Shown: positions 7,182 to 37,284 of the stretch, one piece after another | How the letters are laid out: every line of letters starts with the position of its first letter | Position numbering within the stretch: position 1 is the first letter of the stretch | Sequence record: SRR31156797_11646 | DNA: 44,541 nt | Reading direction: 5' to 3' (one strand) | Translations under genes and position numbers: made by a program | The notes under the pieces: model-generated | Told to the model about the DNA's origin: nothing | The model's input: the letters and a program-made list of their open reading frames with translations, nothing else | Databases searched by the model: none

Positions 7182-7200
7182 CCAACCAGATATACAACGA

Positions 7201-11533: not shown

Positions 11534-11603
11534 GCTCACATCTACCCACATTCACGAAGCGACTCAAAAGTTGAGAAAAAGAGAGGGGTGGGAGGGGCTG
11601 AGT

Positions 11604-21399: not shown

Positions 21400-21465
21400 T
21401 GTTAAAAATATTTTTATTTGATATTTAACAAAAATATTTGATAGCATGCTTACAATTATTTGAGA
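21400..21465 (+). repeat. Transposon left end with three TnsB-type sites
   Basis: TGT terminus; TATTTGATA at 21415 and 21435, TATTTGAGA at 21457 (20-22 bp period). Confidence 0.85.
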
Positions 21466-21497
21466 ATGAGGAAGCGAAAACACCTCCTCAGGTTCAC

Positions 21498-21525
21498 TTG
21501 CATATCTATTTTGATCAACTATAAT
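21498..21525 (+). promoter_or_regulatory. Sigma70-like promoter for the second tniQ
   Basis: TTGCAT-N16-TATAAT, ending 26 bp before the ATG at 21552. Confidence 0.55.
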
Positions 21526-21551
21526 AAAATATTAAACAAGCTAATCAATTG

Positions 21552-22316
21552 ATGTGGCCCATTCATCTTCATTTTCAGGAAGGCGAGTCGATATTTTCTT
21601 GGTTAATTAGGATGGCCATGGCAATGGGGACACGGCCACATTTGCTATGCCGGAGCTTTGTCAAAAGTCGACTTAACCGAGTAAGTGATTTTGACATAGA
21701 AATAACCACGGAAGAGTTCAGAATCGCATCCGCATTAACCGGCATCCATTTGAAACAATTTGAAAAAGCTTCTTTGAAAGACTACCATAAATTGTTTTTC
21801 AAGAACAGTCGTCAAAAAATAACATGGCTTACAAGCTCCATAAGTCTGCCTCCAACCAAACGGCTGGCAACTGTATGTCCATTATGCATGGCTAATGAAT
21901 CTATACCTCATTTAAAAAAAGACTGGAGGCTTACTTTTATAACAGTATGCCCAACTCATGCTGTACGACTCATAGATAAATGTCCACAATGCAATCACTT
22001 TTTTTATGCAGATCAAACGCTTTTTAAAATGGCAAATAAAAAGAGATGCGAAAGTTGTGGTTTTAAATTTGAAAAAATGTCAACTCCATGTACTAATGAA
22101 ATTTATTACTCAAACAAATTCTTCACAGATATTGATATGGATCCTTTAGCATGGAGGGCGTTCTATTTACTTGGCAGGCTTGTAGGTGAAGGGAGTTTAT
22201 ATAGACCAAAATTTGGTGAAGATACTGTTGCCAATCGACATATGATTTTGAAAAGAGCTTTTCTGGAATATGAACTTCTGTGTAACGACAGACGAGAAAA
22301 AAATGATGGCTTATAA
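21552..22316 (+). CDS. tniQ: TniQ-family protein (second copy, short)
   Basis: WPIH...GESIFSWLIR, VCPLC, WRLTFITVCPTH, CPQC, CESCGF: TniQ N-terminus and zinc ligands. Confidence 0.87.
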   Translation: MWPIHLHFQEGESIFSWLIRMAMAMGTRPHLLCRSFVKSRLNRVSDFDIEITTEEFRIASALTGIHLKQFEKASLKDYHKLFFKNSRQKITWLTSSISLPPTKRLATVCPLCMANESIPHLKKDWRLTFITVCPTHAVRLIDKCPQCNHFFYADQTLFKMANKKRCESCGFKFEKMSTPCTNEIYYSNKFFTDIDMDPLAWRAFYLLGRLVGEGSLYRPKFGEDTVANRHMILKRAFLEYELLCNDRREKNDGL

Positions 22317-22472
22317 GTTCTTTATTTTATTAGCCTGATTTTGGTGTCGGGGCCTTAAAATTTTAACAAGCAAGATCAATGTTGTCGTTTAATTTAATAA
22401 TTATCCGTCTTTTGACTGCATTATGTAGGAAATGAACAAGCGCACTGTATGTGTGCTTGTTTTTTTACATTC

Positions 22473-23381
22473 TTATAATGTCAATTCCCATAAGTGGAGC
22501 TGTCTATCGCCGGGAGCAACTTGTGTGTATTTTGTATTAAGTCCTAAAACTTTACAAATAAGTTTCGTATTGAAATTGGGAAATTCATGTCTGAAATTTT
22601 GTGTTGGAGGATTGTATCCTATTGGCTCACCTGCAAACAAAGCTTCATGTGTTAGGTCGTTCCGGGTTTGGCTAAGATCACTGATCTTTTTGTTTCCTGG
22701 TCGTATTTTCGCCCATTGCGGAAGTTCTACGTCATAGAAATCAGCCATCTTCACTGGGCGCTCTGCATGTGAGCCACTATCTGTAATCGCCCCTTTCGAA
22801 ACCGAAATGCGGTAAATCCCATCAAGCACTTTATACTGTGCGTCGAAGTGGTCCCACGGCATTTCATATGCACCGCTCAATAAGAACCAATGGAGGATGG
22901 CAAACATCTGCTTTCTTTCTTTGGAAGTGCTTTTTGAATAAAAATCATTAATACACTTCATGCCTATTTCACAGTCATTCCGTTTTGCTTTAAGGGGATG
23001 GAGTATGCAGGAAGAATGTGGGGTCTTGCAAAAATGCTGATAGCTTTCTGGCAAAAGATACCTTCCGAGCAAAAAACCATACCCCATTATCAAAAAACGA
23101 ATATGCTCGTCATCGATTTTTTCGCTCTCAAATGCGATTGAATGCGTAGAAGGTAAGAGGAAATATTTTTCAGGTAGAAGTGGGCCAGCTTGTTTAAAGT
23201 GATGTTTTTCAAGATGCGTTTGTTTTGCAGGCACATCGCGCACGGGGGGGTAGATCCATCCCCCTGCGACCTCCCAGGTTTGATATACTTCCTGAAGAAG
23301 TTCGTCGTAATCAGGTAAAGGGGATATTCTGATCCCATCAAACGAGAAGTTGTAATTGTTTATTAGAAATCCAAAGTTCAT
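22473..23381 (-). CDS. Hypothetical protein with C-terminal HEPN-like RxxxxH motif
   Basis: 302 aa; helical C-terminus FDAQYKVLDGIY...TRNDLTHE. Confidence 0.55.
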   Translation of the reverse strand: MNFGFLINNYNFSFDGIRISPLPDYDELLQEVYQTWEVAGGWIYPPVRDVPAKQTHLEKHHFKQAGPLLPEKYFLLPSTHSIAFESEKIDDEHIRFLIMGYGFLLGRYLLPESYQHFCKTPHSSCILHPLKAKRNDCEIGMKCINDFYSKSTSKERKQMFAILHWFLLSGAYEMPWDHFDAQYKVLDGIYRISVSKGAITDSGSHAERPVKMADFYDVELPQWAKIRPGNKKISDLSQTRNDLTHEALFAGEPIGYNPPTQNFRHEFPNFNTKLICKVLGLNTKYTQVAPGDRQLHLWELTL

Positions 23382-23693
23382 ACCTTGAGCTACTTCATTT
23401 AACCAACAGAAAAACTATTGTGATACAATTATTGTGTCGCAATAGTGATCGTTAATATTTTGAAATTTTTGAATTTCACCTGCAAAATAAGATCGATGGA
23501 AGCCAGAAAGAAGTCTGGGACTCCTGCTACAGCTTCCTTCGTCCACGAAACGTCCACTTAAAATCTTTATTACTCATCCACAAGATTAACATAAATCCGG
23601 AACACAAATAGTGGGCTATCGTGACTGTTTTGGAAAGTTCCTATAGCGGCAATAACCGAGCAAAACGTCAGAGAAGGATGCTGAGTAGGATTT

Positions 23694-24689
23694 TTACTTC
23701 GCCACAAATTTTAAAAAATAATTTCCATACGAATCTTTAATGTCGAGATTCCCACCGGCTTTCTGGGCATAGGACTCATTCTCGACATATATATTTATTC
23801 CAGTATCAAGGGGATACATTGCAATATTTCCAGCTTGATTTTTTGTAACCTTGTCCAGCCCTCTGTTGTTCCACGGGGCATATGCTAAATGTTCTGATGG
23901 TGCACAACCGAAGATGCTGAACTTAGGGTTTACGATATCTAAAAAATCCCAAGAGCGATTGGATTTTCTTCCATGGTGTGGCGCAAGCAAGACGGTTGCG
24001 TTTTCAACATCTTTTTTAAAGTCTTCTAAAATGGATTCCCATGCTTTATCATGTGAATCACCAGAAAATACAATTTTGCATCCAGCAGTTCGGTATGTCA
24101 CGACATACGAGGCATCGTTTATCGCTTCAGCGCTTTCTGAATCATTTGCGTCTGAGACTAATTGAGCTGTCGGGGAGGAGATCCAAAGCCCGTCACCTCC
24201 CCCTTTGCCGTCTTCTCCTCTGTTGAAAAATTTTCTTCTTGATCCTGCCAATGGAGATATTACGGTGATATTTTCATTTTCGCTAATTATATTGTCATAC
24301 CTATTCCAATCTTCTTCTTTAAACCTGTTACCTTCAGAAAAATCGGGCTTTTCTTTGCGCACGCCGGAATCCCAAAAATTAGTGATAGAAACTGTGTTCA
24401 TCAAATTGTCGATACCATCCATATGATCCATGTCAGGATGTGTCAGAATAAATCTGAAAATTGAAGTGACGTTGAGCTTATCCGTCAAAAAATCCACAGG
24501 ATTTGTCGGATGTTTACACATGCCAAAATTACCTCTAGCTGCTTTTCTTTCTAGAGCAATAAGTCCACGAGATTCATCAATTTTTTCTGCGTTTCCGTTA
24601 CAGATGTCTATGGCCGTAACATTACCATTATTGTGTTTAATGATATGACAGTCACCTTCTCCGCAATTTAAAATATGTATTTCAGCCAT
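23694..24689 (-). CDS. ComEC/Rec2-type metallo-beta-lactamase fold hydrolase (standalone, cytoplasmic)
   Basis: LNCGEGDC, ILTHPDMDHMDG, NDASYV, FSGDS, APHHG. Confidence 0.85.
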   Translation of the reverse strand: MAEIHILNCGEGDCHIIKHNNGNVTAIDICNGNAEKIDESRGLIALERKAARGNFGMCKHPTNPVDFLTDKLNVTSIFRFILTHPDMDHMDGIDNLMNTVSITNFWDSGVRKEKPDFSEGNRFKEEDWNRYDNIISENENITVISPLAGSRRKFFNRGEDGKGGGDGLWISSPTAQLVSDANDSESAEAINDASYVVTYRTAGCKIVFSGDSHDKAWESILEDFKKDVENATVLLAPHHGRKSNRSWDFLDIVNPKFSIFGCAPSEHLAYAPWNNRGLDKVTKNQAGNIAMYPLDTGINIYVENESYAQKAGGNLDIKDSYGNYFLKFVAK

Positions 24690-24793
24690 GACTATCCCAT
24701 TAATTTTGAGTTAAATTGTTGAATCGCGGTATGTATTGAGGGCTTTTTTAGAAAAACAATTAATGTGGTAAATCGGGGGCGATCTTTGTCGAG

Positions 24794-25768
24794 TTAATCA
24801 TCGTCTGCTTCGCTGGTGGCTACTTTAAAAGCAATCGGATGATGGTCTGAGTATTTCATTCTGAATTCTTTTCGTTGGTATGGATCCCCTATGTACGGTC
24901 TGTCCGATTCCTTCCAATATTTCCTCATCTCATCAATTAAGTTTATCACTTTGAACTGCTGATTTTTATGCATTTCATTAGCACTATACTCTAAATTGTA
25001 TAGAACATGGTCGTAGGGCTTAGGGCCTTTGGGATTTGTATTGGTGGGAATGCATGAGCCATTTAACGAAGTGAACCCTTTTGGTAAAATTGAATTTAAC
25101 TCCTCGCAATCTTCAATATTCATATCGCCAAGAATTACGTAATCTTTCTCTGGACCGTTCTGTTTATCAATCCATTTGAATATGGACTTAAACTCATGAG
25201 CACGACGTGTCCTTTTTTTAGAACTCCCTCCAGGTTGCAAATGGACTGATATGAAGACCAAATCACTATTTCCGGCCCTAAAAGAGAATGCATATGGCAC
25301 GCGTTCGTAATCAGGATTATCTGAGCGGTCATTGGCAATAAAACCGTGTGGCAAGCTCTCAGCAGGTGTCACACGGTTTGGTTTGTAAAATGCGACAAAC
25401 CACTCAGTAGCGGATGACTGTTTATGGTTTTCTGGACCGGTTCCGGTATCTTCTTCAGACAATACATAAGAAAAGCCTTCGACTGTCATGGCGTTAAAAA
25501 AGGCCTGAGCCTCTTTGTCGTTTTTATACGATGTGCCATCAGGATATTGACCCGAAAATGGGGGCGCGACTAATTCTTGGATGAATATCAGGTCGTATGG
25601 GGAAAGCAGCTTAGCTAATGCAGGATTGTCTCTATTTTTGAAATGCCCAAGAAATTGGATGTTAAACGACACTACCTCAAGCGATGTTGCAAACGCGCTG
25701 GTGTACATCCCAAATAGGATTACAAAACAGGATGTTATTATTGATGTGAGCCAAAATTTTTTACGCAT
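24794..25768 (-). CDS. Exported endonuclease/exonuclease/phosphatase (DNase I-like) protein
   Basis: Signal peptide ending SAFA; SFNIQ, IQEL, SVHL, GDMN, YDH, SDHHPI catalytic motifs. Confidence 0.85.
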   Translation of the reverse strand: MRKKFWLTSIITSCFVILFGMYTSAFATSLEVVSFNIQFLGHFKNRDNPALAKLLSPYDLIFIQELVAPPFSGQYPDGTSYKNDKEAQAFFNAMTVEGFSYVLSEEDTGTGPENHKQSSATEWFVAFYKPNRVTPAESLPHGFIANDRSDNPDYERVPYAFSFRAGNSDLVFISVHLQPGGSSKKRTRRAHEFKSIFKWIDKQNGPEKDYVILGDMNIEDCEELNSILPKGFTSLNGSCIPTNTNPKGPKPYDHVLYNLEYSANEMHKNQQFKVINLIDEMRKYWKESDRPYIGDPYQRKEFRMKYSDHHPIAFKVATSEADDD

Positions 25769-25861
25769 ATCAGTTCTCTTTACTTCTAAATAGGCGTTTG
25801 ACGTTCTTTTAAACAGGGTTCATATTAACCCGTGAACAATTACTCATGCAAGGAGAGAATA

Positions 25862-26797
25862 ATGCCAGGCGCATATGCACACCTTACCATGGTTAACAGA
25901 TTCAAAACCCCACAAGCCCTTGGGGCTGTGCAAGAACTTTCGTCGGAAAAGGCTTTTCAGATAATGCGATGGACCCGTTTTGTGGAACTGGGGGCGGTCA
26001 GTCCAGATTACCCTTATCTTTCCATAATGGATGAAGACGCCAAAATTTGGGCGGATGCCATGCATTACACAAGCGTTGGCGATCGCCTTAAAGCTGGAAT
26101 TGAGGCCCTCCGGGAAACAGAGCCCGTCACACAGAATAAGGCCTTTGCTTGGCTGCTTGGCTTTGCCTCGCACATTGCCATGGATTTGACGATTCACCCC
26201 GTTGTTGAACTGAAGGTTGGAGAATACGCGGAAAATGCCGCCGAGCACAGAACCTGTGAAATGAATCAGGATGTATTCATTTTCGAAGAAATGAATTTTG
26301 GGCCTCTGGCATTTGCCGAGTTCATTGATGCCGGCGTTGGTCGTTGTAATGCGGAAGATGACGAAGAGATGATCGATCGAGAGATCAAGCAAATCTGGAT
26401 GAAAATGCTTCGTAGAACGTCCTCTTCAGACCTCTTGGAGAATTTCCCTCCTGATATGGATAAGTGGCATCGCCGGTTCAAGATGATGGTCGATGACATT
26501 GCGGAGGAAACTCAGCGGCTGCCCTCAATCGCCCGTCACGCACTTGCCGGTACTGGTGTGGCTTATCCACTTCGGGAAGAGGTCGACAATACGTTTATCA
26601 CCGGCTTGGAAACACCTGAAGGCGAACGGATGGATTATACTCAGATATTCGACAAGGCGCAAAGTAGTGTAGCCTCTCTATGGTCATTGGTTACCCGAGG
26701 AGCATTCGGAATTGACAGTGAGTATGAGGATGCCATTCACGATTGGAATCTTGATACCGGTAAGCGTCCGGACGGCACGTTTGAATTCTGGAGGTAA
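25862..26797 (+). CDS. Zinc-dependent phospholipase C / P1-nuclease superfamily protein
   Basis: MPGAYAH, GAVSPDYPY, MHY, GFASHIAMDLTIHP, HRTCEMNQD; ATG 25862 after AGGAG; no signal peptide. Confidence 0.75.
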   Translation: MPGAYAHLTMVNRFKTPQALGAVQELSSEKAFQIMRWTRFVELGAVSPDYPYLSIMDEDAKIWADAMHYTSVGDRLKAGIEALRETEPVTQNKAFAWLLGFASHIAMDLTIHPVVELKVGEYAENAAEHRTCEMNQDVFIFEEMNFGPLAFAEFIDAGVGRCNAEDDEEMIDREIKQIWMKMLRRTSSSDLLENFPPDMDKWHRRFKMMVDDIAEETQRLPSIARHALAGTGVAYPLREEVDNTFITGLETPEGERMDYTQIFDKAQSSVASLWSLVTRGAFGIDSEYEDAIHDWNLDTGKRPDGTFEFWR

Positions 26798-26800
26798 TAA

Positions 26801-27223
26801 ATGAAACGGAAAGTTGTAAGCCTTGCCCTTCTCGCGTTCCTACTTTTTAGTTTCGGATGTGCTTGCCAACAGCATCAGCCTATGTACAGCCTATCCGTCG
26901 AACTCAACAAACTCACAACTGCGGCTGAAGGTTATGAACACTTCATGAAGCCGCCCGCCGACTTAAGTGACGAGGAATTTTTGAAAAAGGCTACAGAGCA
27001 CGATCCGAGGCTTCTGAAGCCCTTTGAGGATTTTAAGCTAGATGTCGTTCGAAAAGATGGTCACGTAAGCATTCTTGTTTGTTCAAAGGAAGACGGACGT
27101 GCACTTCTCCAAGACATCGGCTGCACCGGTGAGTTTGACCTGCACCTCTGGAAGACAAAATCTCCCGTATCTTGTGGTCAAGTCGATGACGGAATCTCTA
27201 TCTGCACCCCGAATAAGGAGTGA
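26801..27223 (+). CDS. Hypothetical Cys-rich lipoprotein
   Basis: MKRKVVSLALLAFLLFSFGC lipoprotein signal; five further Cys; GGAGG RBS in upstream gene. Confidence 0.7.
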   Translation: MKRKVVSLALLAFLLFSFGCACQQHQPMYSLSVELNKLTTAAEGYEHFMKPPADLSDEEFLKKATEHDPRLLKPFEDFKLDVVRKDGHVSILVCSKEDGRALLQDIGCTGEFDLHLWKTKSPVSCGQVDDGISICTPNKE

Positions 27224-27228
27224 TTTCA

Positions 27229-28269
27229 ATGTCTGTATTTTTTGAACACGAACAACTTATGGAGGCCCCGCCGATCAAGCGAGCGGCATACTCTGACCGA
27301 ACGGCGTGGCTGATGGGAGAACTCTCTAGATTAGTTTATGAAAGGCTTCCTAATGAACAAGAGTTGGAGGAATTGCTGGGCAAGCTGATTAAAGGCATCC
27401 AGGAAGACAAGTCGAAGGCAGAACTGAGTTTTATGGCTGCCGAGTTTGTAGCCTGCACTAATGAGACACAAGAAAGCCAGACGGACAAAGTCCTTAAGGG
27501 GCAAAATTTTGAACTGTTTCGTTCATACTCCATTGGCGGGACTGAATGCATGATTGTCAAAATCCCAGAAAGGGATGAGGTGAATTTTGCAGGCATGTTC
27601 GTGATCGTTTTCAGGGGCACCGAGCCGACGTCATTGGCAGATCTGAAAGCTGATGTGAGGGCGAACTTGACTGCTGCGCCAGGCGGAGGACGAGTTCATA
27701 AAGGTTTTTTGGACGCCTACAACAAGGTTGGAGAAATCCTCAAAGAGGATATCAAGGAAGCGGGCAACCTGCCAGTTTACATTGCGGGACATTCTCTTGG
27801 TGGTGCCCTTGCGCTAGTGGCCACTCGCTACATCGGAAGTGATAGCGTGGGGGCAACATACACCTTTGGCGGGCCCAGAGTTGGTGATGACGAATTCTTT
27901 GAGAATATCAAAACGCCAGTGTATAGAGTCGTAAACGCCGCTGATGGTGTAGCCAGGGTGCCATTTGGAGTAGGCTTGTCCATTGTGGTGACGGTTATCC
28001 GATTAATTCCTCTAAATGGAACCAAGAAGGTTTCTAAGTGGATAGCGCGATTGTTTAGTGGGTACACGCATTACGGCGACATGAAACTTCTTAGCGATCA
28101 TACAAAGAAGAAACCGGTCCAGGTGTTCTCTAGCCCGAGTATATTCAAGACTATGCTCCAGGTTGTTCTTCCTCGTTTAATGGCCACCATGGGAAAAGCA
28201 AGCTTTCAGGACCACAGTATGGATGGTTATTGTGAAAAATTGGCCAACTATGCAAAGAGAAGGATTTAA
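27229..28269 (+). CDS. Class 3 lipase (alpha/beta hydrolase)
   Basis: VFRGTE, VHKGF, GHSLGGALA, YTFGGPRVG, VVNAADGVARVP, DHSM; ATG 27229 after AAGGAG. Confidence 0.9.
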   Translation: MSVFFEHEQLMEAPPIKRAAYSDRTAWLMGELSRLVYERLPNEQELEELLGKLIKGIQEDKSKAELSFMAAEFVACTNETQESQTDKVLKGQNFELFRSYSIGGTECMIVKIPERDEVNFAGMFVIVFRGTEPTSLADLKADVRANLTAAPGGGRVHKGFLDAYNKVGEILKEDIKEAGNLPVYIAGHSLGGALALVATRYIGSDSVGATYTFGGPRVGDDEFFENIKTPVYRVVNAADGVARVPFGVGLSIVVTVIRLIPLNGTKKVSKWIARLFSGYTHYGDMKLLSDHTKKKPVQVFSSPSIFKTMLQVVLPRLMATMGKASFQDHSMDGYCEKLANYAKRRI

Positions 28270-29012
28270 TGGATTTCAAACTTGACCGCTATACTCTCAA
28301 CGCTCGCCTCGCGCCTATGCTGATCACGCTGATGCCAATCGGACTGGCAGTTCTTAGCTTGTTTCCCGCAAAGTCTTCAAACCTTGCTTTGGTGGTCGGC
28401 GTTGTGACTTACTGTGGGATGTTGGTCCTGCTGTCGAACTTGGGACGTGATTTGGGCAGAAATATGCAAACCAAACTTTTCAAAAAATGGGGCGGAAGCC
28501 CTACTTCGAAAATGCTGGATCCGAACGTTTCTCAAATGCCTAAAACGCAACTCGCAGCAATTCACTCCAGCTTAGAAAAGCTGACAGGTGTCTCACTTCC
28601 TGAGAATGCCAGTCCCGAGGAAAGAGTGGAGGTTTTTGAGACATGGACCACGTATTTAAGGACTAATACGAGAGGTCAAGATAACGGACAGTTTCGGCTG
28701 ATTCTATCCGAGAATATCAGTTTCGGTTTCCGGCGTAATCTTTATGGCCTTCGTTGGATTGGTTTTGTGCTGTCCATTCTTGCCCTTGGTATTGCAATTG
28801 GGGATCATACCATTATTACTTGGGGTGGAGAACCATGGCACACTGACATACTTGCTCTGCGACCAGTAGCAAAGGCTGCAACCCTTATTACAGCTTGGAC
28901 CGCCTTAGTATTTTTGTTTGTGGTACGGGAAAACTGGGTGAAAATTGCGGCTGAGGCTTATGCCAAGCAGCTTCTTGAAGCAGTGTTCGTCTTGAGCAAA
29001 GGTGAAGTGTAG
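28269..29012 (+). CDS. Hypothetical membrane protein, about 4 TM helices
   Basis: Two N-terminal and two C-terminal hydrophobic segments around a soluble domain (ENISFGFRRNLYG); TAATG overlap with lipase. Confidence 0.75.
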   Translation: MDFKLDRYTLNARLAPMLITLMPIGLAVLSLFPAKSSNLALVVGVVTYCGMLVLLSNLGRDLGRNMQTKLFKKWGGSPTSKMLDPNVSQMPKTQLAAIHSSLEKLTGVSLPENASPEERVEVFETWTTYLRTNTRGQDNGQFRLILSENISFGFRRNLYGLRWIGFVLSILALGIAIGDHTIITWGGEPWHTDILALRPVAKAATLITAWTALVFLFVVRENWVKIAAEAYAKQLLEAVFVLSKGEV

Positions 29013-29055
29013 TACCGTTTAACTGAAATACCCAAAAAACCCCAAGCCACTGCAA

Positions 29056-29095
29056 ACATTAAGGCTCTCTCGCAAGCGCAAGAAAGCCTTAATGT
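29056..29095. terminator. Hairpin between convergent cargo operons
   Basis: ACATTAAGGCT...AGCCTTAATGT 11-bp perfect outer stem. Confidence 0.6.
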
Positions 29096-29122
29096 GTAAG
29101 TGTTTAGGTTAAGAAGCATAAG

Positions 29123-31387
29123 TTATTCATGATTCATAATGATAACATTTATATCCATTTCTCCTACGATTAATTGAACTCCAGGACACCCATCCATCGA
29201 CAATGTGGACGACAATTCGGCCAATTGCCGCATATCGATACAGCTTGGCATTGAACTACATCCAGGCGGATGTGAATGCCATTCTCCCACGTAACGAATT
29301 TGGTCTAAGGTTCGGGCCATAGATTCTGTCACAAGATTCGTAAGACCTTCTGTTCCGCGCAGGAATTCTCTTTCGCTTTCTTTGCTGTCAGGAGGAGCCG
29401 GGAGCGCTTGAAGAATTTCAAGCTGCTTATTGGGCACATCAACGATCCCCATAAGAGCTCCTCCTGTTTCGCAGGGGAGCTTCATTTTTCGCATTCTTCT
29501 GATTTGCTTTTCAACAGGGGCAAGAATACGAACTCGCCATTTAGCTTCTTGAGCAATAGGCTCTTCTGTTAACAATGTTGTGGCCTGTACTGAGCCATCA
29601 GACTCCAATTGCCAAATTTTTAACCTCGCCTCATTGGTTTTCAAGACGTCGTTTATACCCATAGCCACAAGGCCGGACAAAATTTGAACAGTTGAGGCCG
29701 GAAGTTGAGTTGTAAGCGCCCGGCAGTCCCCAGAATAAGGTATCTGGCTAGGTTCTATAGTCAATAAATCAGACAAAGCAGGGGTTGTGAGGATGCTGTG
29801 GTAAAATGTGGCTTCAAGCGTCTTTAAATCAATTTTTCGAGCCATATCTTCAGCCATCAAAATCGCAGTATCTCCAACCGGGTTGTAAAAGAATGAAATC
29901 CGACGAGCTGAAACTGGAAGATCACAAAGGTTTCTGCTTGCCGCGATAGAGGCAGATGCATCCAAAATGAGATCCGCCTTTTCGGTCGCTTCCTTAAAGG
30001 GCTGTTCGTGGTCCCCTAAATTAAGGCAGTTGGCTTCTATAGAAGATGTTTTTAAACCGATGCAGTTCGTGACAAGTTTCGATGCCAAACCACTTGCCTT
30101 CGATGCATCCAAATTTTCCGTCGTCAATGCATGGCGCGCAAGATTGTGAGGGAATAAAATATCATTATCTACAATCGTCCATTCGAATCGTCCTTCGCGA
30201 GACAGCGACTCCGCGACCATTGACCCTATTGCGCCAGCTCCAACCAACACGACGCTCTTTGAATCGACTTCACTGTGGCCAGCCATCTTTGTTGCTAGGG
30301 TGGGATCAAAAGCGGCATGCACATTTCCCGCAATGATTTTAAAATTTTCAAAATCTTCGATTTCCCAGGGGGCGGAAGGGACGACCAACCCATATGTGCA
30401 GCTACTTTTTGTGGGATTTGGATATATTACATTCAATGCAACGCCAATGTCTCCAAGAGTATTATCTGCAGAGACAAAGGCAATCATACTCATGCCATCT
30501 ATTGCGCCTGTCCTTGGATGAATAATGGGCATCTTGAGGAGGAGGCCGAGCTTGGCTTCAAGCCTCTGGTATTTCCATTTATCCTGAATTTCTACCCAAT
30601 TTTTAATTCGAGTAGAGATCAAATCCAACAGGTTGACTCCTCTCTGATCAAGTTCACGGTGGAGATCTGCAAGATTGGAAGGAGTGCTACGAATTCGTTT
30701 CATCTTGGCTGGTTCAATCTCAATCGCGAGGAAAACACAAACTCCTTCAAGGTGTTTGTCTGGCCATTCGTTTGTTATGGGGAAACTTGAGAGATTGTTT
30801 CCACTCTGTTTGCTTCTAAAAAAAGCAAACAGATCGTATTGTTCTTCCGGTTCCAACGAAAATAGGTCTTGGGGGAAGGTGAAATTTGCTTGATCGGGAA
30901 AGAAATACGGATCAAGAGGCTGGTTGATTCCGTGAAATTCATCCCGCGCCGTCTTTTGAAACCACGTCACGATTCTCTGGAGCAGTTCTGCGGGGGTGTA
31001 TGTTAAAATTGCTTCAACCCAGGATCTGTCATCAATGCATAAACTATAAGGTGATCCGGCAGGCACAGTATTTTGATGAGGGGTGTCAGGGAAGTCTTCT
31101 CGATTACTTAATACAAACGGGGGGTAATTGTCCTCTCCGAAAATTATGGCGACAACTTCTTTCCTTTTTATATCATAAGCAGGCCGCTGCGGACATCCTG
31201 TTTGGACTTCAAGAAAAAGAACATCACCGCCCTTCTTAAAGGTGTAGGTTCCTAAAATCCGCGCGGTTCCGTCTCCATGAGCCTCAACGAACTGGTGGAA
31301 ATCAATAGATCGTGACTTTTCGAGGTCATCTTTGCTGATTTCCACCAGGATTTCTTTGGCTAAAAAAACCTCAAACCAGGGATGCAC
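29123..31387 (-). CDS. E2-E1(ThiF)-JAB fusion protein (Cap2-Cap3-like)
   Basis: E2: FPDTPHQN..SLCID; E1: LVGAGAIGS, VDNDILFPHNLARH, GDC; JAB: ETGG..GEWHSHP..PSCID; likely GTG start 31387 after GGAGG. Confidence 0.9.
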   Translation of the reverse strand: MHPWFEVFLAKEILVEISKDDLEKSRSIDFHQFVEAHGDGTARILGTYTFKKGGDVLFLEVQTGCPQRPAYDIKRKEVVAIIFGEDNYPPFVLSNREDFPDTPHQNTVPAGSPYSLCIDDRSWVEAILTYTPAELLQRIVTWFQKTARDEFHGINQPLDPYFFPDQANFTFPQDLFSLEPEEQYDLFAFFRSKQSGNNLSSFPITNEWPDKHLEGVCVFLAIEIEPAKMKRIRSTPSNLADLHRELDQRGVNLLDLISTRIKNWVEIQDKWKYQRLEAKLGLLLKMPIIHPRTGAIDGMSMIAFVSADNTLGDIGVALNVIYPNPTKSSCTYGLVVPSAPWEIEDFENFKIIAGNVHAAFDPTLATKMAGHSEVDSKSVVLVGAGAIGSMVAESLSREGRFEWTIVDNDILFPHNLARHALTTENLDASKASGLASKLVTNCIGLKTSSIEANCLNLGDHEQPFKEATEKADLILDASASIAASRNLCDLPVSARRISFFYNPVGDTAILMAEDMARKIDLKTLEATFYHSILTTPALSDLLTIEPSQIPYSGDCRALTTQLPASTVQILSGLVAMGINDVLKTNEARLKIWQLESDGSVQATTLLTEEPIAQEAKWRVRILAPVEKQIRRMRKMKLPCETGGALMGIVDVPNKQLEILQALPAPPDSKESEREFLRGTEGLTNLVTESMARTLDQIRYVGEWHSHPPGCSSMPSCIDMRQLAELSSTLSMDGCPGVQLIVGEMDINVIIMNHE

Positions 31388-31388
31388 A

Positions 31389-32525
31389 TCAGCCTCCCCG
31401 AGACTCGGAAGAGGTCGTTGTGCCGATCGCACTTGGAGTAATGACATCACACGCAGCACCATACTTGGTGATGTCGATGTGGAGCGGTTTTAGACTCTTA
31501 ATGGAAGGATGCTCCATTGTTACTTTGAATTCACCGTCTTTGCCTTTGATTACGCCCTTATAATACGCAGCTGCCTGACGATGAGGGGGATATTTATCCT
31601 TGTCAGCTTCAGTTCCCTTTTTAGGAATAGGTTTACTCGGGGAGACGATGATTGCGCCAGCTTGCCCCTGCGATTCGATGAGCCACTTAACATTAGGAAT
31701 GGGGAGAACTTTGTCTTTTTTCTCACGCTCTTTCTCATCAGCATTCAGTGCTTTATATGAGCAGTGGTGGAACAATTTAAGAATATCCCACTCCAACCTT
31801 TCTTCGTTGTTTTTCCGTTTGGTAGTCTGGGCAATCTTATCAAGAGTTTCAGAATCAACGTCAGAACCGAACAGAGCATATGTAGTAGAACGCCCTTCAA
31901 CAAAAGTAGCCTGAAATACGATGGAGTTTTGATTTCGGTCTTCAAGGCCGTCGTCAGATCGCCAGGCAAAGGGGCAATGAACAAAAAATTCAATAGCCTC
32001 AGCCCGATCTTTTGAATAGCCAGGTACGTATTTGCCTGCATCAACGATGCAGTCTTTTCGGCTTTCGATGGTGAGGTCGTACTTCTTTAAAAAGTCTTTC
32101 AAAGCTTCAGGGCGCGAAAAGACCTTAATGTCCTTCCCTTCACGAAGGCGATAGCGGGCTTCTTTACGGACTGTTTCGGCGTCCCCTTTAAGGTTCTTTT
32201 CGGTGAGAGCCTCAGCTGGCACCCAGAGTTCATTTATTCTCGGACGGCTGAGTTTTTGAGTGGATTTCAAACTTTTGAGTTCGAAATAGTCGCTGAATCC
32301 TTTGATGTGGTCTTCATCAACATGCGTGATGCAAACCACTTCAAAATCCTTTTGCTTGGCGCTGTAAAGAGCATTGTTCAGCTCTTTGGGCAAATCGCAC
32401 CTTTTGTCATCCTCTTCATCGGTGGCCATGTCCGCGAAATCAACTAGCATTAGTCTGCTATCTGCGAATCGGATAAGAGTGGTATCGGCGTTGCCAAGGG
32501 GATAGAATGTGAGTCGAGCTGACAT
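31389..32525 (-). CDS. MBL-fold metallohydrolase with C-terminal Gly-Gly tail
   Basis: FYPLGNADT, ITHVDEDHIKG, NQNSIV, GSD, FHHCS; ends SSESRGG; ATG 32525 after AGGAGG. Confidence 0.87.
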   Translation of the reverse strand: MSARLTFYPLGNADTTLIRFADSRLMLVDFADMATDEEDDKRCDLPKELNNALYSAKQKDFEVVCITHVDEDHIKGFSDYFELKSLKSTQKLSRPRINELWVPAEALTEKNLKGDAETVRKEARYRLREGKDIKVFSRPEALKDFLKKYDLTIESRKDCIVDAGKYVPGYSKDRAEAIEFFVHCPFAWRSDDGLEDRNQNSIVFQATFVEGRSTTYALFGSDVDSETLDKIAQTTKRKNNEERLEWDILKLFHHCSYKALNADEKEREKKDKVLPIPNVKWLIESQGQAGAIIVSPSKPIPKKGTEADKDKYPPHRQAAAYYKGVIKGKDGEFKVTMEHPSIKSLKPLHIDITKYGAACDVITPSAIGTTTSSESRGG

Positions 32526-32685
32526 GGGCCCTCCTGTGATATTTTTGTTCCTATTAAGTAATGCGGGTCTGGAGGTTGTCAACCGTTTGAAATACTAGAC
32601 TTTTGAAGTGTGTTTTATAGGCTAGGGGCTAATTCTCGCCTGCCCTATATTCATAGCTATTGAAATTATTCATCAGACCAAAAAT

Positions 32686-33840
32686 TCAGTTAAGTTCTTT
32701 GCGAATGATTGGAAATAGACTGCTATACTTACCTGGCCCAATCATTTCCCCATATATTTCTCTGCTAAACTTGGTGTGATTACGTCTTAGGAGTGAGATG
32801 ACATTGGTAACTTCAGCAACACTTGGTTGGTAGTAGGGGATCAAAAGATTTTGTCGAACCTCTTTGCTAAGCCAGTATGGTCTGGAATCTCTGGTCATAA
32901 TAATTGTATTGGCCGGGACACGGACCTTTTTGCAAGTCTCGATAAAACGTCTTGGCCAACTCTCAAATACCCAATTCAATATTCGCAAACAGTCGACACG
33001 AAAAGAGAGGGGGAGTAATTCGACTTCAGGATGTTCTGTGGAGTTTCGAAAAGTATGGTCCGCGTTAAGTTTTAACTTGTTGGCAACGTACTCATGAAAC
33101 TGTTGCCCGGCTTTTCTATATGCGAGGAAACTACACAGGACCCGCATACCCTCAAAGAATAAATGAGAGTATGGAATGTGTTTTTTGCCTAGGACGCCAT
33201 ATCCATTTTGATAGAAATGCATACACTTGCGTGTCATATGGACCAAATCTTCTGGAGCTTTATACACTCGCGTTGTTCGGAGATCGAAGCCGCATGTCGC
33301 GCACAGTGTAACTCCCACATCTTGCTTCAGTGACATGGCGGCGGGATGGACTTTTCGCAAATTGATTGGTGACCTACAAGAAGGACACCGGTCATGTAAA
33401 AAGCACCCGTGAATTGCACAGCTAGTATAAAATGCTAAGCGCCATCTCTTCAAAAAATGTGGATGCCTAGCTTCTTTTAAACACGAAGGACAAAATTGAA
33501 GACTGGTTTTAGGGTAATTCGGTCGCCGTAGGCGTAAAGGTAATATCCACTTGACTTGAACAGCTATTTTTTGATTTTCAGATAGCTTGTCAGCATCGTG
33601 GTGAAAGGTAAGATTTTGAATGGCTTGGTAGCTCATTCCGGTTTTGTCTGCGAGCTTTTCAACAATTTTTGAGTTGCAGAATATATCAAGATCATTTTTC
33701 CAAATATCAGGGGCCTGAACTGTCAAGCGCATGAAGGTGTATGGGATTTGACCATGGGTTAATGCAGACCTTGATATCCAAGATGAGAGGAGTTCCCCGC
33801 GAAAAGGGCTGGGACGAATTGGCCAGAGAGTTTCGCCCAC
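32686..33840 (-). CDS. tniQ: TniQ/TnsD-family target selector
   Basis: WPIRPSPFRGELLSSWISR, FCPSC, WRLAFYTSCAIH, CPSC, CATCGFDL; follows tnsC. Confidence 0.92.
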   Translation of the reverse strand: MGETLWPIRPSPFRGELLSSWISRSALTHGQIPYTFMRLTVQAPDIWKNDLDIFCNSKIVEKLADKTGMSYQAIQNLTFHHDADKLSENQKIAVQVKWILPLRLRRPNYPKTSLQFCPSCLKEARHPHFLKRWRLAFYTSCAIHGCFLHDRCPSCRSPINLRKVHPAAMSLKQDVGVTLCATCGFDLRTTRVYKAPEDLVHMTRKCMHFYQNGYGVLGKKHIPYSHLFFEGMRVLCSFLAYRKAGQQFHEYVANKLKLNADHTFRNSTEHPEVELLPLSFRVDCLRILNWVFESWPRRFIETCKKVRVPANTIIMTRDSRPYWLSKEVRQNLLIPYYQPSVAEVTNVISLLRRNHTKFSREIYGEMIGPGKYSSLFPIIRKELN

Positions 33841-33843
33841 AGT

Positions 33844-34722: not shown

Positions 34723-34725
34723 TAG

Positions 34726-36603: not shown

Positions 36604-36604
36604 A

Positions 36605-37246
36605 TTATGACCTCTCATAAAATAAATGGGTGTTCATACTAAGGGGATCAAATATATCTATTTTTAATATTTTTTTCGCAACCATTTGCCATATGCAGTA
36701 AATGAGTTTCCCTCTTTTAGTAGAGTCGAATGCATAATAATCTGTAATATCCCTTGGAGTTGTAAGGCCATACTTTTCAATAGCCGACGTTATTAGTTGA
36801 GAATACTCTGTATCAATCTCCGAGAGTGAATAGCCTTTCAAAAACTTGATATTCTCCCATTGGATCGTGCGGATTTGTTTTTCAGTCGCAACTTTGAAGA
36901 ATAAGTCGTTGGCTCTAGAATAGGCAATTGCCGCCTTAAACTTCGGTAAAAAATCATCTTTCTTTTCATGCAATTCTGATGAGTACTTCACCTCATAGAG
37001 CACTTTTCGGCCATCGGAATGGGAAACCAGCACATCGGGCGTGTATGACCTTTTACGGCCATTGTAATCTGTAAATTCAATTTGCATTGGTTGGACCTGA
37101 AAATTTGTCACGTCCTCTCTGAATTCAAGTTGGATATAAAAATCTTGCTCAAGAGTAGACTCAAATTGAGCTTCTCCAGGATTTTTATTGCTGCTTACAA
37201 TCCCAGTAACATTTCTGTAGCTCTTAGGGATTTTTCTGACGGCCAT
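36605..37246 (-). CDS. tnsA: TnsA endonuclease
   Basis: FESTLEQD, QVQP, YTPDVLV, YEVKY (PD-D/ExK). Confidence 0.93.
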   Translation of the reverse strand: MAVRKIPKSYRNVTGIVSSNKNPGEAQFESTLEQDFYIQLEFREDVTNFQVQPMQIEFTDYNGRKRSYTPDVLVSHSDGRKVLYEVKYSSELHEKKDDFLPKFKAAIAYSRANDLFFKVATEKQIRTIQWENIKFLKGYSLSEIDTEYSQLITSAIEKYGLTTPRDITDYYAFDSTKRGKLIYCIWQMVAKKILKIDIFDPLSMNTHLFYERS

Positions 37247-37284
37247 GAAAATACTCGCATTTATTTTTAGATTTTTTCTAGAGA

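What the first reader, a model, noticed from the sequence alone, without database searches (positions are those of the whole stretch)
25862..29012. Unassigned four-gene membrane-lipid operon: Zn-PLC-like enzyme, lipoprotein, class-3 lipase, 4TM protein
Seen: four co-oriented genes with gaps of 3 bp and 5 bp and a TAATG overlap, the first three with clear RBSs; both enzymes keep catalytic motifs and lack signal peptides; shared hairpin downstream. Known: Tn7-like cargo is rich in anti-phage systems, and phospholipases and TM proteins are common death effectors. I know no named system with this composition. Inference: a new envelope-linked defence or conflict module, for example PLC making diacylglycerol that the lipase hydrolyses (parallel to the eukaryotic PLC/DAG-lipase route), controlled by the lipoprotein or TM protein. 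An orphan effector-immunity cassette is the alternative.
Basis: partly seen in the sequence, partly recalled or inferred. Interest (0 to 1): 0.8.

Follow-up and report, generated by a model that had tools for sequence, protein, structure and literature searches.

The report
Mosaic operon, not one four-gene system
The four tightly packed genes are real but are a patchwork: a widespread, unexplained enzyme-plus-lipoprotein pair, a usually free-standing lipase, and a membrane protein that elsewhere always travels with the kind of anti-phage system encoded next door.

Summary
In detail: four co-oriented genes (25862-29012) with 3 bp and 5 bp gaps and a TAATG overlap lie in the cargo of a Tn7-like element inserted in comM. 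The four-gene set is not a conserved unit.

- **g1 and g2.** The Zn-phospholipase-C-fold enzyme g1 and the lipoprotein g2 are an obligate pair. g2 follows g1 in 77 of 80 genome loci, and the 3 misses are contig ends. The lipase occurs in 0 of 80 and the membrane protein in 1 of 80.
- **g3.** The class-3 lipase g3 stands alone among housekeeping genes in 9 of 10 related genomes.
- **g4.** The 4-TM protein g4 lies beside an MBL-fold gene of PADLOC type PDC-M48B, or beside the 6A-MBL pair, in 24 of 24 other loci. Both partner types flank this operon, so g4 most likely belongs to that neighbouring defence system.
- **What g1-g2 does.** It has no known function. It sits beside strong defence genes in 11 of 35 loci, often CBASS, against 0 of 9 lipase control loci. 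It was not found in the phage and viral collections searched, and it is syntenic in Nitrosospira.

Best reading: a mosaic of a candidate conflict cassette and an unrecognised membrane partner of 6A-MBL. The PLC-to-DAG-to-lipase pathway is unsupported.

The parts
25862..26797 (+). g1: Zn-dependent phospholipase-C-fold enzyme of 311 aa, with no export signal and an invariant N-terminus MPGA[YF]AH
   Evidence: Pfam PF00882 at E 1.8e-21. The eight metal-ligand-type residues are invariant. The AlphaFold model has pLDDT 82.6 and pTM 0.86. Its best structural matches are B. cereus PC-PLC (Z 7.8), Listeria PlcB (Z 7.8) and alpha-toxin (Z 7.4). S1/P1 nucleases score 4.7-3.9 and unrelated chains 3.4 or less.
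26801..27223 (+). g2: lipoprotein of 140 aa, the obligate partner of g1
   Evidence: It lies immediately downstream of g1 in 77 of 80 loci. The lipobox Cys20 and four further Cys (94, 108, 125, 135) are invariant in 30 sequences. It has no Pfam, PADLOC or NCBIfam family. The model has pLDDT 91.4. It shows only weak pilin-like similarity, Z 6.1 or less.
27229..28269 (+). g3: class-3 lipase of 346 aa, with no export signal and a conserved hydrophobic stretch at 244-262
   Evidence: Pfam PF01764 at E 1e-23. GHSLG Ser189, D239 and His are invariant. A sequence-profile search of PDB gives fungal class-3 lipases at 1e-20. The gene is solitary in 9 of 10 related genomes.
28269..29012 (+). g4: 4-TM protein of 247 aa, from a large family without a name; probable membrane partner of the adjacent MBL-type defence genes
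   Evidence: The family has 1948 cluster representatives at E 1e-3 or better. It has no Pfam or PADLOC model. It lies beside a PDC-M48B-type MBL gene or the 6A-MBL pair in 24 of 24 other loci.
29056..29095 (.). Hairpin between the convergent g4 and cap2_3 genes
   Evidence: It has no T-run.
29123..31462 (-). 6A-MBL system E2-E1-JAB triple-module protein (cap2_3)
   Evidence: NCBIfam NF058523 at E 3.6e-174, 580.9 bits against a cut-off of 320. Pfam Prok-E2_A, ThiF and Prok-JAB.
31389..32582 (-). 6A-MBL system MBL-fold protein; its C-terminus ends in SRGG
   Evidence: NCBIfam NF058524 at E 5.7e-113, 377.6 bits against a cut-off of 220. C-terminus read.
23694..24689 (-). Second MBL-fold protein, PADLOC type PDC-M48B, the usual neighbour of g4-family genes
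   Evidence: PADLOC PDLC04673 at E 9.1e-40.
24794..25768 (-). Secreted EEP-fold nuclease-like protein that travels with g1-g2 in this genus
   Evidence: Pfam PF03372 at E 1.1e-6. NCBIfam MnuA family at 2.1e-12, below its cut-off. Homologues of 65-67% identity lie near g1-g2 in L001 and L172.
21410..37340 (.). Tn7-like element inserted in a comM-type gene; it carries all of the above as cargo (approximate ends)
   Evidence: TnsA, TnsB, TniB and two TniQ genes, with a split Mg_chelatase/ComM gene at 20206-21405 and 37391-37813. Terminal inverted repeat at 21424-21444 / 37306-37326.

Best explanation
The block is one probable transcription unit built from three evolutionary modules.

(1) g1-g2 is an autonomous, horizontally moving two-gene cassette.
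- g1 is made in the cytoplasm as a zinc phosphodiesterase of the phospholipase-C fold. Its own N-terminus appears to take the place of the processed N-terminus of secreted PLCs.
- g2 is exported, lipid-anchored and probably disulfide-bonded.
- I infer that this cassette is a conflict or defence module. In that reading g1 attacks phospholipid head groups when triggered, and g2 acts on the periplasmic side as guard or immunity partner.
- That the two are a pair is shown. The role is inferred, at about 0.4.

(2) g4 is the membrane component of the neighbouring MBL-type defence genes: the 6A-MBL pair (cap2_3 plus MBL) and the PDC-M48B-type MBL.
- By analogy with type II CBASS, the E2-E1-JAB protein would activate or conjugate the MBL enzyme through its Gly-Gly tail.
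- g4 would then be the membrane effector or anchor.
- The association is shown. The mechanism is inferred.

(3) g3 is a class-3 lipase from a mostly free-standing cytoplasmic family.
- In this lineage it has been captured between the two modules.
- It may serve as an extra lipid-hydrolysing effector coupled to g4, but there is no evidence for a conserved PLC-to-DAG-to-lipase pathway.
For: g1-g2 as a pair:
- g2 follows g1 in 77 of 80 loci; the 3 misses end at the contig edge.
- My script found a lipoprotein-type start in 67 loci. In 66 of these it lies -10 to +6 nt from the g1 stop, and in 34 it overlaps by 4 nt.
- Neighbourhoods are otherwise variable, apart from 22 syntenic Nitrosomonadaceae loci.
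- The pair is patchy: 8 of 201 genomes of the family carry g1.
- The g1 tree mixes phyla (quick tree only).

g1-g2 in a defence context:
- Within two genes either side, 11 of 35 loci have a PADLOC hit of at least 200 bits.
- These hits are CBASS, Wadjet, RM, AbiE, PDC-S01, PDC-M48B and Cas6f.
- None of the 9 solitary-lipase control loci has such a hit.
- Complete CBASS sets lie beside g1-g2 in L001, L039, L075, L076, L080 and L172.
- An Aliarcobacter plasmid has YegP-like > E1E2 > JAB > g1 > g2 in one operon.

g4 with MBL-type systems:
- 16 of 16 genome and viral loci, 7 of 7 plasmid loci and 1 phage have a partner gene beside g4.
- The partner is a PDC-M48B-type MBL in 18 of the 24 and MBL6A plus cap2_3 in 11 of the 24.
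- In one sample of 401 Pseudomonadota genomes, cap2_3 passes its cut-off in 9 and g4 lies adjacent in 4 of those 9.
- In the window both partners are present and full-length.
- The MBL ends in SRGG.

g3:
- It is found in 10 of 301 genomes of the order and is alone in 9 of the 10.
- 0 of 80 more distant metagenome loci have g1, g2 or g4 nearby.
Against: Against the mosaic reading:
- The four genes are as tightly packed as a true operon. The TAATG junction of g3 and g4 looks selected.
- G217 keeps g1-g2-g3 at 77, 58 and 75% identity.
- Two further contigs may hold both g1 and g3. This rests only on matching contig lengths.
- L069 has a g4-family gene 3 kb from g1-g2, so some link among the parts is not excluded.

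Against g4 belonging to the 6A-MBL or PDC-M48B genes here:
- In the window g4 is convergent with cap2_3 and 3.6 kb from the PDC-M48B-type gene.
- In the other 24 loci it is codirectional with and adjacent to its partner.
- 5 of 9 genomes with cap2_3 over its cut-off had no g4-family match.

Against a defence role for g1-g2:
- No match in 50,697 phage records.
- No match in IMG/VR contigs.
- Only 2 of 72,556 plasmids carry it.
- It holds a stable syntenic place beside nadB-rpoE-rseAB in Nitrosospira.
- 24 of 35 loci show no strong defence neighbour, and many are housekeeping contexts.
- The cytoplasm/periplasm split gives no obvious way for g1 and g2 to touch.

Caveat on the control set: 2 of its 9 loci had weaker PADLOC hits (QatD at 73.7 bits, DpdF at 99.3 bits). 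I read these as TatD-type and DEAD-box housekeeping proteins. That is my judgement.
Confidence: 0.6

Rival explanations
1. All four genes form one envelope-linked defence or conflict system. In the first reader's model, PLC makes diacylglycerol, the lipase hydrolyses it, and the lipoprotein and TM protein control them.
For: - The spacings are operon-like and g3/g4 overlap.
- The g1-g2-g3 trio is kept in G217.
- g1-g2 and a g4-family gene lie within 3.2 kb of each other in L069.
- The block is cargo of a Tn7-like element among defence genes.
Against: - 0 of 80 g1-g2 loci have the lipase and 1 of 80 have g4.
- The lipase is alone in 9 of 10 genomes.
- G217 lacks g4.
- In 24 of 24 other loci the neighbour of g4 is an MBL-type gene or the 6A-MBL pair, never a g3-type lipase.
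- Pfam found no lipase or alpha/beta-hydrolase among the neighbours scanned: 113 proteins within two genes of g1-g2 in 33 loci, where proteins with strong PADLOC hits had been left out.
Confidence: 0.1
2. g1-g2 is an interbacterial toxin-immunity pair. g1 would be a phospholipase toxin exported without a signal peptide, by T6SS or by lysis as bacteriocins are. g2 would be the periplasmic lipoprotein immunity protein, as in Tle/Tli pairs.
For: - The gene order is effector then lipoprotein, with translational coupling.
- g2 is periplasmic with four invariant Cys.
- g1 has no signal peptide.
- The T6SS sheath gene TssC (PF05943) is present in 8 of 10 carrier genomes from diverse taxa.
- The description of Tle/Tli pairs is recalled, not read here.
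Against: - No recurrent vgrG-, PAAR-, hcp- or adaptor-like cluster appears among the 80 loci, nor in the Pfam scan of 113 proteins within two genes of g1-g2 in 33 loci.
- In Desulfovibrionaceae only 2 of 8 carriers have TssC, against 53 of 201 overall. The window's genus has 0 of 7.
- g1 is unusually conserved for a toxin, at 42-50% identity across classes, and has an invariant N-terminus.
- No longer or fused forms appear among the best 120 homologues. Longer forms were not searched for.
Confidence: 0.2
3. g1-g2 is an accessory envelope or lipid-homeostasis module, for example phospholipid head-group turnover linked to an envelope lipoprotein. It merely hitch-hikes in islands.
For: - It holds a stable syntenic position in 22 Nitrosomonadaceae loci, between an ABC exporter and nadB-rpoE-rseA-rseB.
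- Other loci have housekeeping neighbours such as RNR, plsX/fabH and SLT.
- It was not found in the phage and viral collections and is rare on plasmids.
Against: - It is patchy: 8 of 201 genomes in the family.
- The tree mixes phyla.
- 11 of 35 loci have strong defence genes within two genes, against 0 of 9 in the control.
- Here it is cargo of a Tn7-like element.
Confidence: 0.25
4. g3-g4 is a functional pair in which the lipase replaces the MBL hydrolase as the enzyme partner of the g4 membrane protein. It would serve as the effector module of the adjacent 6A-MBL system.
For: - The TAATG coupling of g3 to g4 mirrors the tight coupling of MBL genes to g4 elsewhere. Examples are 4-nt overlaps in L196 and L224 and 4-bp gaps in L220 and L221.
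- In the Methylocystis plasmid g4 is followed by a DUF2235 alpha/beta-hydrolase instead of an MBL.
- CBASS-type systems use phospholipase and TM effectors. This is seen in PADLOC effector names; the generalisation is recalled.
Against: - This rests on a single instance. No other g3-g4 pair was found.
- The close g4 relatives lie on contigs whose lengths match none of those of the listed g1 or g3 hits. This is an indirect argument.
- g3 orthologues at 46-68% identity are solitary housekeeping-context genes.
Confidence: 0.2

Closest known systems
Secreted zinc phospholipases C: Bacillus cereus PC-PLC, Listeria PlcB and the clostridial alpha-toxin N-domain (Pfam PF00882)
   Same: g1 passes the Pfam gathering score. 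The set of conserved His, Asp and Glu residues is conserved. These three are the best structural matches at Z 7.8, 7.8 and 7.4, ahead of S1/P1 nucleases at 4.7 or less.
   Different: g1 has no signal peptide or propeptide. The protein begins at an invariant MPGA[YF]AH, and residue 2 of the model aligns with residue 1 of mature PC-PLC. It has an extra conserved C-terminal region of about 120 aa. It is always paired with a lipoprotein. It has no sequence-level PDB match at E 1 or better.
6A-MBL anti-phage system (operon type 6a of Iyer et al. 2006; the 'MBL pathway' related to type II CBASS)
   Same: The window encodes both defining proteins above the NCBIfam cut-offs. The published description is a two-gene operon of an E2-E1-JAB triple-module protein plus an MBL (PMC1779556, passages).
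   Different: A g4-family 4-TM gene sits directly beside the pair in 11 of the 24 g4 loci I examined. It does so in 4 of the 9 genomes with cap2_3 over its cut-off in one sample. That partner is not part of the description I could read. In the window g4 is convergent with the pair and coupled to a lipase.
PADLOC candidate system PDC-M48 (PDC-M48B MBL-fold protein)
   Same: The window's second MBL (23694-24689) and the MBL genes next to g4 relatives match PDC-M48B models strongly.
   Different: No PADLOC model matches any of 30 g4-family members at E 0.1 or better. So g4 is not the modelled PDC-M48A, or that partner is something else. I could not see the PADLOC definition of PDC-M48A.
T6SS lipase effector / lipoprotein immunity pairs (Tle/Tli)
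   Same: g1-g2 has a lipid-hydrolase-fold protein without a signal peptide, followed by a periplasmic lipoprotein.
   Different: There is no vgrG, PAAR or hcp linkage. 8 of 18 carrier genomes tested lack the TssC gene. The fold is Zn-PLC rather than the alpha/beta-hydrolase or PLD folds of Tle proteins; that last point is recalled.
CBASS operons with phospholipase or TM effectors and Cap2/Cap3
   Same: g1-g2 lies next to complete CBASS operons in at least five lineages. It lies behind an E1E2-JAB pair in one plasmid.
   Different: Those CBASS operons already have their own effectors. g1-g2 occurs without CBASS in most loci.

Membership tests
Zinc-dependent phospholipase C (PF00882) | Match to the family profile above the curated cut-off | tested here: met
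   77.2 bits against a cut-off of 26.8; profile positions 12-164 of 167 are matched.
Zinc-dependent phospholipase C (PF00882) | Conserved His/Asp/Glu metal-ligand set | tested here: met
   H7, D49, H68, H104, D108, H112, H129 and E133 are invariant in 15 sequences and at least 97% conserved in 121. Mapping them onto the numbered ligands of B. cereus PC-PLC is recalled, not computed.
Zinc-dependent phospholipase C (PF00882) | All-helical PLC fold | tested here: met
   VIA-align Z 7.8 (rmsd 3.9, 165 aligned) to 1ah7, 7.8 to 8cqm and 7.4 to 1olp. The next unrelated chain scores 3.4. Foldseek alone gave no match at E 0.001 or better. Z below 8 is modest on its own.
Zinc-dependent phospholipase C (PF00882) | Secretion signal, and an N-terminus created by processing, as in the characterised enzymes | tested here: not met
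   There is no hydrophobic N-terminal segment. The protein starts at an invariant MPGA[YF]AH.
Zinc-dependent phospholipase C (PF00882) | Phospholipid head-group hydrolysis | not testable with these tools
   This needs an enzyme assay.
Bacterial lipoprotein (g2) | Signal peptide ending in a lipobox Cys | tested here: met
   Cys20 is invariant in 30 sequences and is preceded by a hydrophobic segment. Most homologues show L-x-[GAS]-C. The window's own box (FGC) is atypical.
Type IV pilin-like fold (g2) | Pilin alpha/beta roll together with a class III prepilin signal | tested here: inconclusive
   The best Z values are 6.1, 5.9 and 5.4 to minor pilins. These tie with inositol-monophosphatase-type domains at 5.5-5.0. 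The signal is of lipoprotein type, not prepilin type.
Lipase class 3 (PF01764) | Profile match, and a Ser-Asp-His triad with GxSxG | tested here: met
   84.2 bits against a cut-off of 22. GHSLG, D239 and H281/H329 are invariant. PDB class-3 lipases match at 1e-20.
6A-MBL system | E2-E1-JAB triple-module protein and its MBL partner, adjacent | tested here: met
   NF058523 at 580.9 bits (cut-off 320) and NF058524 at 377.6 bits (cut-off 220). The genes are adjacent on the minus strand.
6A-MBL system | g4-family TM protein as a component | tested here: inconclusive
   g4 is adjacent in 4 of 9 genomes with cap2_3 over its cut-off and in 11 of 24 g4 loci. It is not part of any definition I could read. 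In the window it is convergent, not co-transcribed.
PADLOC PDC-M48 | PDC-M48B MBL protein together with its A partner | tested here: inconclusive
   The B component is met for window 23694-24689 (E 9.1e-40). No protein in the window or in the g4 family matched an A model.
T6SS effector-immunity pair (g1-g2) | Linkage to vgrG, PAAR, hcp or adaptor genes, and a T6SS in the host | tested here: not met
   No such cluster recurs in the 80 loci. None appears among the 113 neighbours scanned with Pfam. TssC is present in 10 of 18 carriers tested and in 0 of 7 genomes of the window's genus.
Known anti-phage systems (PADLOC-DB 2.0.0) | Match of g1, g2, g3 or g4 to any model | tested here: not met
   0 families at E 0.01 or better for all four proteins.

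The most novel reading that the evidence does not exclude
Two unrecognised pieces of bacterial immunity are hidden in this operon.

(a) g1-g2 would be a new, widespread two-gene defence or conflict system. It would be built from a cytoplasmically made zinc phospholipase-C-fold enzyme and a disulfide-bonded periplasmic lipoprotein. It is recruited next to CBASS-type systems. In one plasmid it occupies the place that a CD-NTase or MBL holds behind an E1E2-JAB pair, so it may be a further enzyme class regulated by ubiquitin-like conjugation.

(b) The g4 family would be the missing membrane effector or anchor of the 6A-MBL and PDC-M48B-type systems. It is found on chromosomes, on plasmids of Gram-negative and Gram-positive bacteria, and in a P2-like phage.
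Probability: 0.3. Interest if true: 0.75.

Novelty: new variant of a known kind. Interest (0 to 1): 0.55.

Why it matters
If g4 is a working part of 6A-MBL and PDC-M48B-type systems, it supplies a candidate effector or anchor for a ubiquitin-like defence pathway. I could not find a description of that pathway's output, and experiments that clone only the two named genes may miss it.

The g1-g2 pair is common: 1403 proteins at E 1e-3 or better in a word-indexed search, and relatives in 263 genome stretches. Its pairing is strict and it poses a clear topological puzzle, a cytoplasmic PLC-fold enzyme with a periplasmic partner. Solving it would either add a lipid-targeting defence or toxin system or reveal an envelope function.

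The result also warns that tight gene packing in transposon cargo does not by itself define a system.

Tried and rejected
Searches that gave nothing:
- PADLOC, NCBIfam and PHROGs gave no name for g1, g2 or g4.
- Pfam on 30 g2 relatives and on 30 g4 relatives gave only chance-level hits.
- A sequence-profile search of PDB found nothing for g1 at E 1 or better and only noise for g2.
- Foldseek alone gave no match at E 0.001 or better for either model.
- Earlier findings of this scan held nothing.

Searches of limited use:
- The metagenome scan for the lipase used generic lipase motifs. It returned mostly distant relatives of 48% identity or less, so it says little about close g3 contexts.
- The careful maximum-likelihood tree did not finish in two 300-s runs. 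Only the quick tree is used.

- The tools return no model coordinates, so I could not test whether the invariant C132 and C162 of g1 could form a disulfide.

Ideas considered and set aside:
- g1 as an S1/P1-type nuclease. It scores lower than the PLCs (Z 4.7 or less against 7.8) and Pfam prefers PF00882.
- g1-g2 as a CBASS effector. The adjacent CBASS operons already carry their own effectors.

Literature:
- Searches found no paper describing a Zn-PLC plus lipoprotein pair, or a TM partner of 6A-MBL.
- I did not find the primary 6A-MBL paper (van den Berg et al. 2024), which I know only from its citation in PMC13276650.
- No supplementary file was opened, so its gene content, and any mention there of a TM partner, is unknown to me.

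Full report
**1. What is there**

The window holds a Tn7-like element with TnsA, TnsB, TniB/TnsC and two TniQ genes. It is inserted in a comM-type Mg-chelatase gene whose halves lie at 20206-21405 and 37391-37813. The element has end repeats at 21424-21444 and 37306-37326.

Its cargo, read left to right, is:
- an unknown 302-aa protein that matches phrog_5937;
- an MBL-fold protein of PADLOC type PDC-M48B (23694-24689, E 9.1e-40);
- a secreted EEP-fold nuclease-like protein (24794-25768);
- the four genes of the finding;
- on the opposite strand, the two proteins of the 6A-MBL anti-phage system. NF058523 scores 580.9 bits and NF058524 scores 377.6 bits, both above their cut-offs.

- The spacings are 3 bp, 5 bp and a TAATG overlap.
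- RBS-like words precede each gene.
- Pfam assigns Zn_dep_PLPC to g1 and Lipase_3 to g3.
- Neither enzyme has a signal peptide, g2 has a lipoprotein-type signal and g4 has four hydrophobic segments.
- A hairpin lies at 29056-29095, but it has no T-run.

**2. The four genes do not travel together**

A profile of g1 relatives found 263 genome stretches that encode a relative, and the best 80 were kept. tblastn with all window proteins gave these counts:
- g2 lies directly downstream of g1 in 77 of 80 loci. The three misses (L013, L026, L036) end within 135 bases of g1.
- The lipase g3 occurs in 0 of 80.
- g4 occurs in 1 of 80 (L069, 3.2 kb away).

Searching from the lipase side gave the same picture.
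- 10 of 301 genomes of the order have a g3 relative.
- With 8-kb flanks, only G217 has g1-g2-g3, at 77, 58 and 75% identity and without g4.
- The other nine have the lipase alone, among genes that from their N-terminal sequences I take to be housekeeping genes such as surE and trigger factor.
- Eighty more distant metagenome loci had none of the partners.

**3. g1-g2 is a strict pair**

g1 belongs to a large family of uniform length. The word-indexed search found 1403 proteins at E 1e-3 or better, and the best 120 are 296-332 aa long.

My script recognised a lipoprotein-type start in 67 loci. In 66 of these it lies -10 to +6 nt from the g1 stop, and 34 have a 4-nt overlap.

g2 relatives keep the lipobox Cys and four further Cys. 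They also keep D105, D113 and, nearly always, W117. They have no Pfam family.

g1 keeps eight His/Asp/Glu residues of the metal-ligand type, two invariant Cys (C132, C162) and an invariant N-terminus MPGA[YF]AH.

The g1 model is good, with pLDDT 82.6 and pTM 0.86.
- In an all-against-representatives structural search the three best chains are the three solved zinc PLC types (Z 7.8, 7.8, 7.4).
- S1/P1 nucleases follow at 4.7-3.9, and unrelated chains score 3.4 or less.
- Residue 2 of the model aligns with residue 1 of mature B. cereus PLC.
- From this I infer that g1's own N-terminus plays the part that signal-peptide cleavage creates in the secreted enzymes. That would explain its invariance.

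The g2 model is confident (pLDDT 91.4). It resembles type IV pilin heads only at Z 5-6, which ties with other small alpha/beta domains, so I do not file it in any fold family.

**4. Where g1-g2 lives**

Outside a 22-locus syntenic block in Nitrosomonadaceae the neighbours vary. In that block the pair sits between an ABC exporter and nadB-rpoE-rseA-rseB.

I scanned 137 of the 139 proteins within two genes either side of g1-g2, in all 35 non-Nitrosospira loci with at least 3 kb of flank. Eleven loci have a PADLOC hit of at least 200 bits:

| Locus | Defence neighbour |
|---|---|
| L001 | CBASS cyclase and 2TM effector |
| L002 | HNH |
| L020 | type I REase, PDC-S01 |
| L030 | CapP, JetA, JetB |
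| L039 | CBASS phospholipase |
| L066 | AbiEi, AbiEii, PD-T4-2 |
| L069 | JetD, PDC-M48B |
| L072 | JetD |
| L075 | CBASS E2 and SAVED-2TM, Cas6f |
| L076 | CBASS 2TM, Cas6f |
| L080 | CBASS cyclase and Cap2 |

L069/L072 and L075/L076 are pairs of related genomes, so the 11 are not independent.

Other observations on the neighbourhoods:
- The nine solitary-lipase loci served as a control. None has a hit of at least 200 bits. Two have weaker hits (73.7 and 99.3 bits) that I read as TatD-type and DEAD-box proteins.
- Pfam adds toxin-antitoxin and mobility genes in further loci: HipA in L001 and L048, BrnT in L005, a transposase in L023, an integrase in L072 and a T4SS coupling protein in L063.
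- Pfam also shows clear housekeeping contexts in others.
- Complete CBASS operons flank g1-g2 in L001, L039, L075, L076, L080 and G217.
- On the quick tree these cases, the window and the plasmid below fall in at least five separate places.
- An Aliarcobacter plasmid carries YegP-like > E1E2 > JAB > g1 > g2 as one tight operon without a cyclase.

Against a classical mobile defence gene:
- g1 has no match in the phage collection.
- It has no match in IMG/VR.
- It occurs on 2 of 72,556 plasmids.

**5. The T6SS idea**

The pattern of an effector without a signal peptide followed by a periplasmic lipoprotein recalls Tle/Tli pairs.
- TssC is present in 8 of 10 diverse carrier genomes.
- In Desulfovibrionaceae only 2 of 8 carriers have it, against 53 of 201 overall. 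The window's genus has 0 of 7.
- No vgrG-, PAAR- or hcp-like gene recurs beside the pair.

A T6SS is therefore not required. Another toxin-immunity arrangement is not excluded.

**6. g4 belongs with the MBL-type genes**

A full HMMER search shows that g4 is a member of a large unnamed family. It has 1948 representatives at E 1e-3 or better and conserved cytoplasmic motifs. It has no Pfam or PADLOC model.

The family is rare and patchy:
- 4 of 401 genomes of the window's phylum;
- 6 of 401 Pseudomonadota genomes;
- 84 plasmids, including Clostridium, Bacillus and Rhodococcus;
- 7 IMG/VR contigs;
- one P2-like Ralstonia phage.

I examined 24 loci in all: 16 genomic or viral, 7 plasmid and 1 phage. 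In every one the gene next to g4 is a PDC-M48B-type MBL (18 of 24) and/or the MBL6A plus cap2_3 pair (11 of 24). The usual order is MBL6A > cap2_3 > g4 > PDC-M48B, all on one strand.

In one 401-genome sample cap2_3 passes its cut-off in 9 genomes, and g4 is adjacent in 4 of them.

The window has all three partners in full length, but g4 is convergent with cap2_3. The EEP gene and g1-g3 separate it from the PDC-M48B-type gene.

What I could read about 6A-MBL:
- The description I could read gives the 6a operon as two genes (PMC1779556, passages).
- A later preprint groups the 'MBL pathway' with type II CBASS and Pycsar. It describes these as systems whose fused E2-E1 conjugates the signalling enzyme (PMC11601596, passages).
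- The window's MBL ends in SRGG, which fits that picture.
- Two papers name 6A-MBL as an anti-phage system of Pseudomonas aeruginosa (passages).
- I did not find the primary report.

**7. How it most likely works**

Shown:
- the pairings, the folds, the conserved residues and the neighbourhoods.

Inferred:
- g4 is the membrane effector or anchor for the MBL-type defence genes.
- g3 is a captured lipase that may add a lipid-hydrolysing activity at the membrane. It has a conserved hydrophobic stretch at 244-262. In one plasmid a DUF2235 hydrolase follows g4.
- g1-g2 is a separate conflict or defence cassette. Its enzyme cuts phospholipid head groups from the cytoplasmic side and its lipoprotein acts in the periplasm.

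How the two halves of g1-g2 communicate is unexplained.

**8. Verdict**

The interpretation of one new four-gene system is not supported. Two parts remain of real interest. One is a strict, widespread enzyme-lipoprotein pair of unknown role that is enriched beside defence genes. The other is an unrecognised membrane partner of 6A-MBL and PDC-M48B-type systems. Interest is 0.55.

Noticed in passing
window 31389-32582 (-): The 6A-MBL MBL-fold protein ends in ...SESRGG. This is a ubiquitin-like Gly-Gly tail that fits conjugation by the adjacent E2-E1-JAB protein. Its ORF overlaps the annotated start of cap2_3 by 74 nt.
   Followed up: partly
L175 (G202, same genus) 6293-9032: A g3-type lipase (63% identity) lies directly after an intact comM gene, and a partial comM copy lies upstream. 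comM looks like a recurrent insertion hot spot, and the lipase there may be an island remnant.
   Followed up: no
window 24794-25768; L001 4234-5178; L172 4375-5322; L039 8366-9142; L033 5850-6600; L080 8869-9660: Secreted nucleases recur beside g1-g2. An EEP-fold protein does so in three Pseudodesulfovibrio islands, Endonuclease_NS in two Geobacter-type loci (one broken), and Endonuclease_I in one locus.
   Followed up: partly
L223 (Aliarcobacter cryaerophilus plasmid NZ_CP099557) 3333-7335: One tight operon reads YegP-like (162 aa) > Cap2-like E1E2 (564 aa) > JAB (161 aa) > g1 > g2, with no cyclase or MBL gene. g1 could be the enzyme partner of the conjugation pair here, or the operon could be a decayed CBASS.
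   Followed up: partly
L216 (Methylocystis heyeri plasmid) 1581-7387: The order is MBL6A > cap2_3 > g4-family > DUF2235 alpha/beta-hydrolase. A hydrolase other than an MBL follows g4 here.
   Followed up: no
L069 (Sulfuritalea MAG) 2041-12896: The order is a 1159-aa ORF upstream of JetD (probably JetC; not scanned), then JetD > g1 g2 > PDC-M48B > IS transposase > g4-family > PDC-M48B. This is a second, unrelated lineage in which g1-g2 lies beside the g4/MBL module.
   Followed up: partly
L015, L028 and 20 other Nitrosomonadaceae loci: g1-g2 keeps a fixed place between an ABC exporter and nadB-rpoE-rseA-rseB, the envelope-stress sigma factor cluster.
   Followed up: partly
window 22473-23381 (-) and 21549-22316 (+): A 302-aa protein with no Pfam or PADLOC match but a PHROG hit (phrog_5937, 5.8e-13) lies next to the PDC-M48B-type MBL. 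A second, short TniQ gene lies at the far end of the element.
   Followed up: no
L187 1163-5953; L197 2234-8476: A retron-type reverse transcriptase (PADLOC RT_VI, 1.3e-78) lies just upstream of g4 > MBL6A > cap2_3 in L187. A full-length HmaC lies next to 6A-MBL in L197.
   Followed up: no
L224 (Ralstonia phage YO009_3, Peduoviridae) 2350-4244: A P2-like phage carries a PDC-M48B-type MBL gene that overlaps a g4-family gene by 4 nt.
   Followed up: partly
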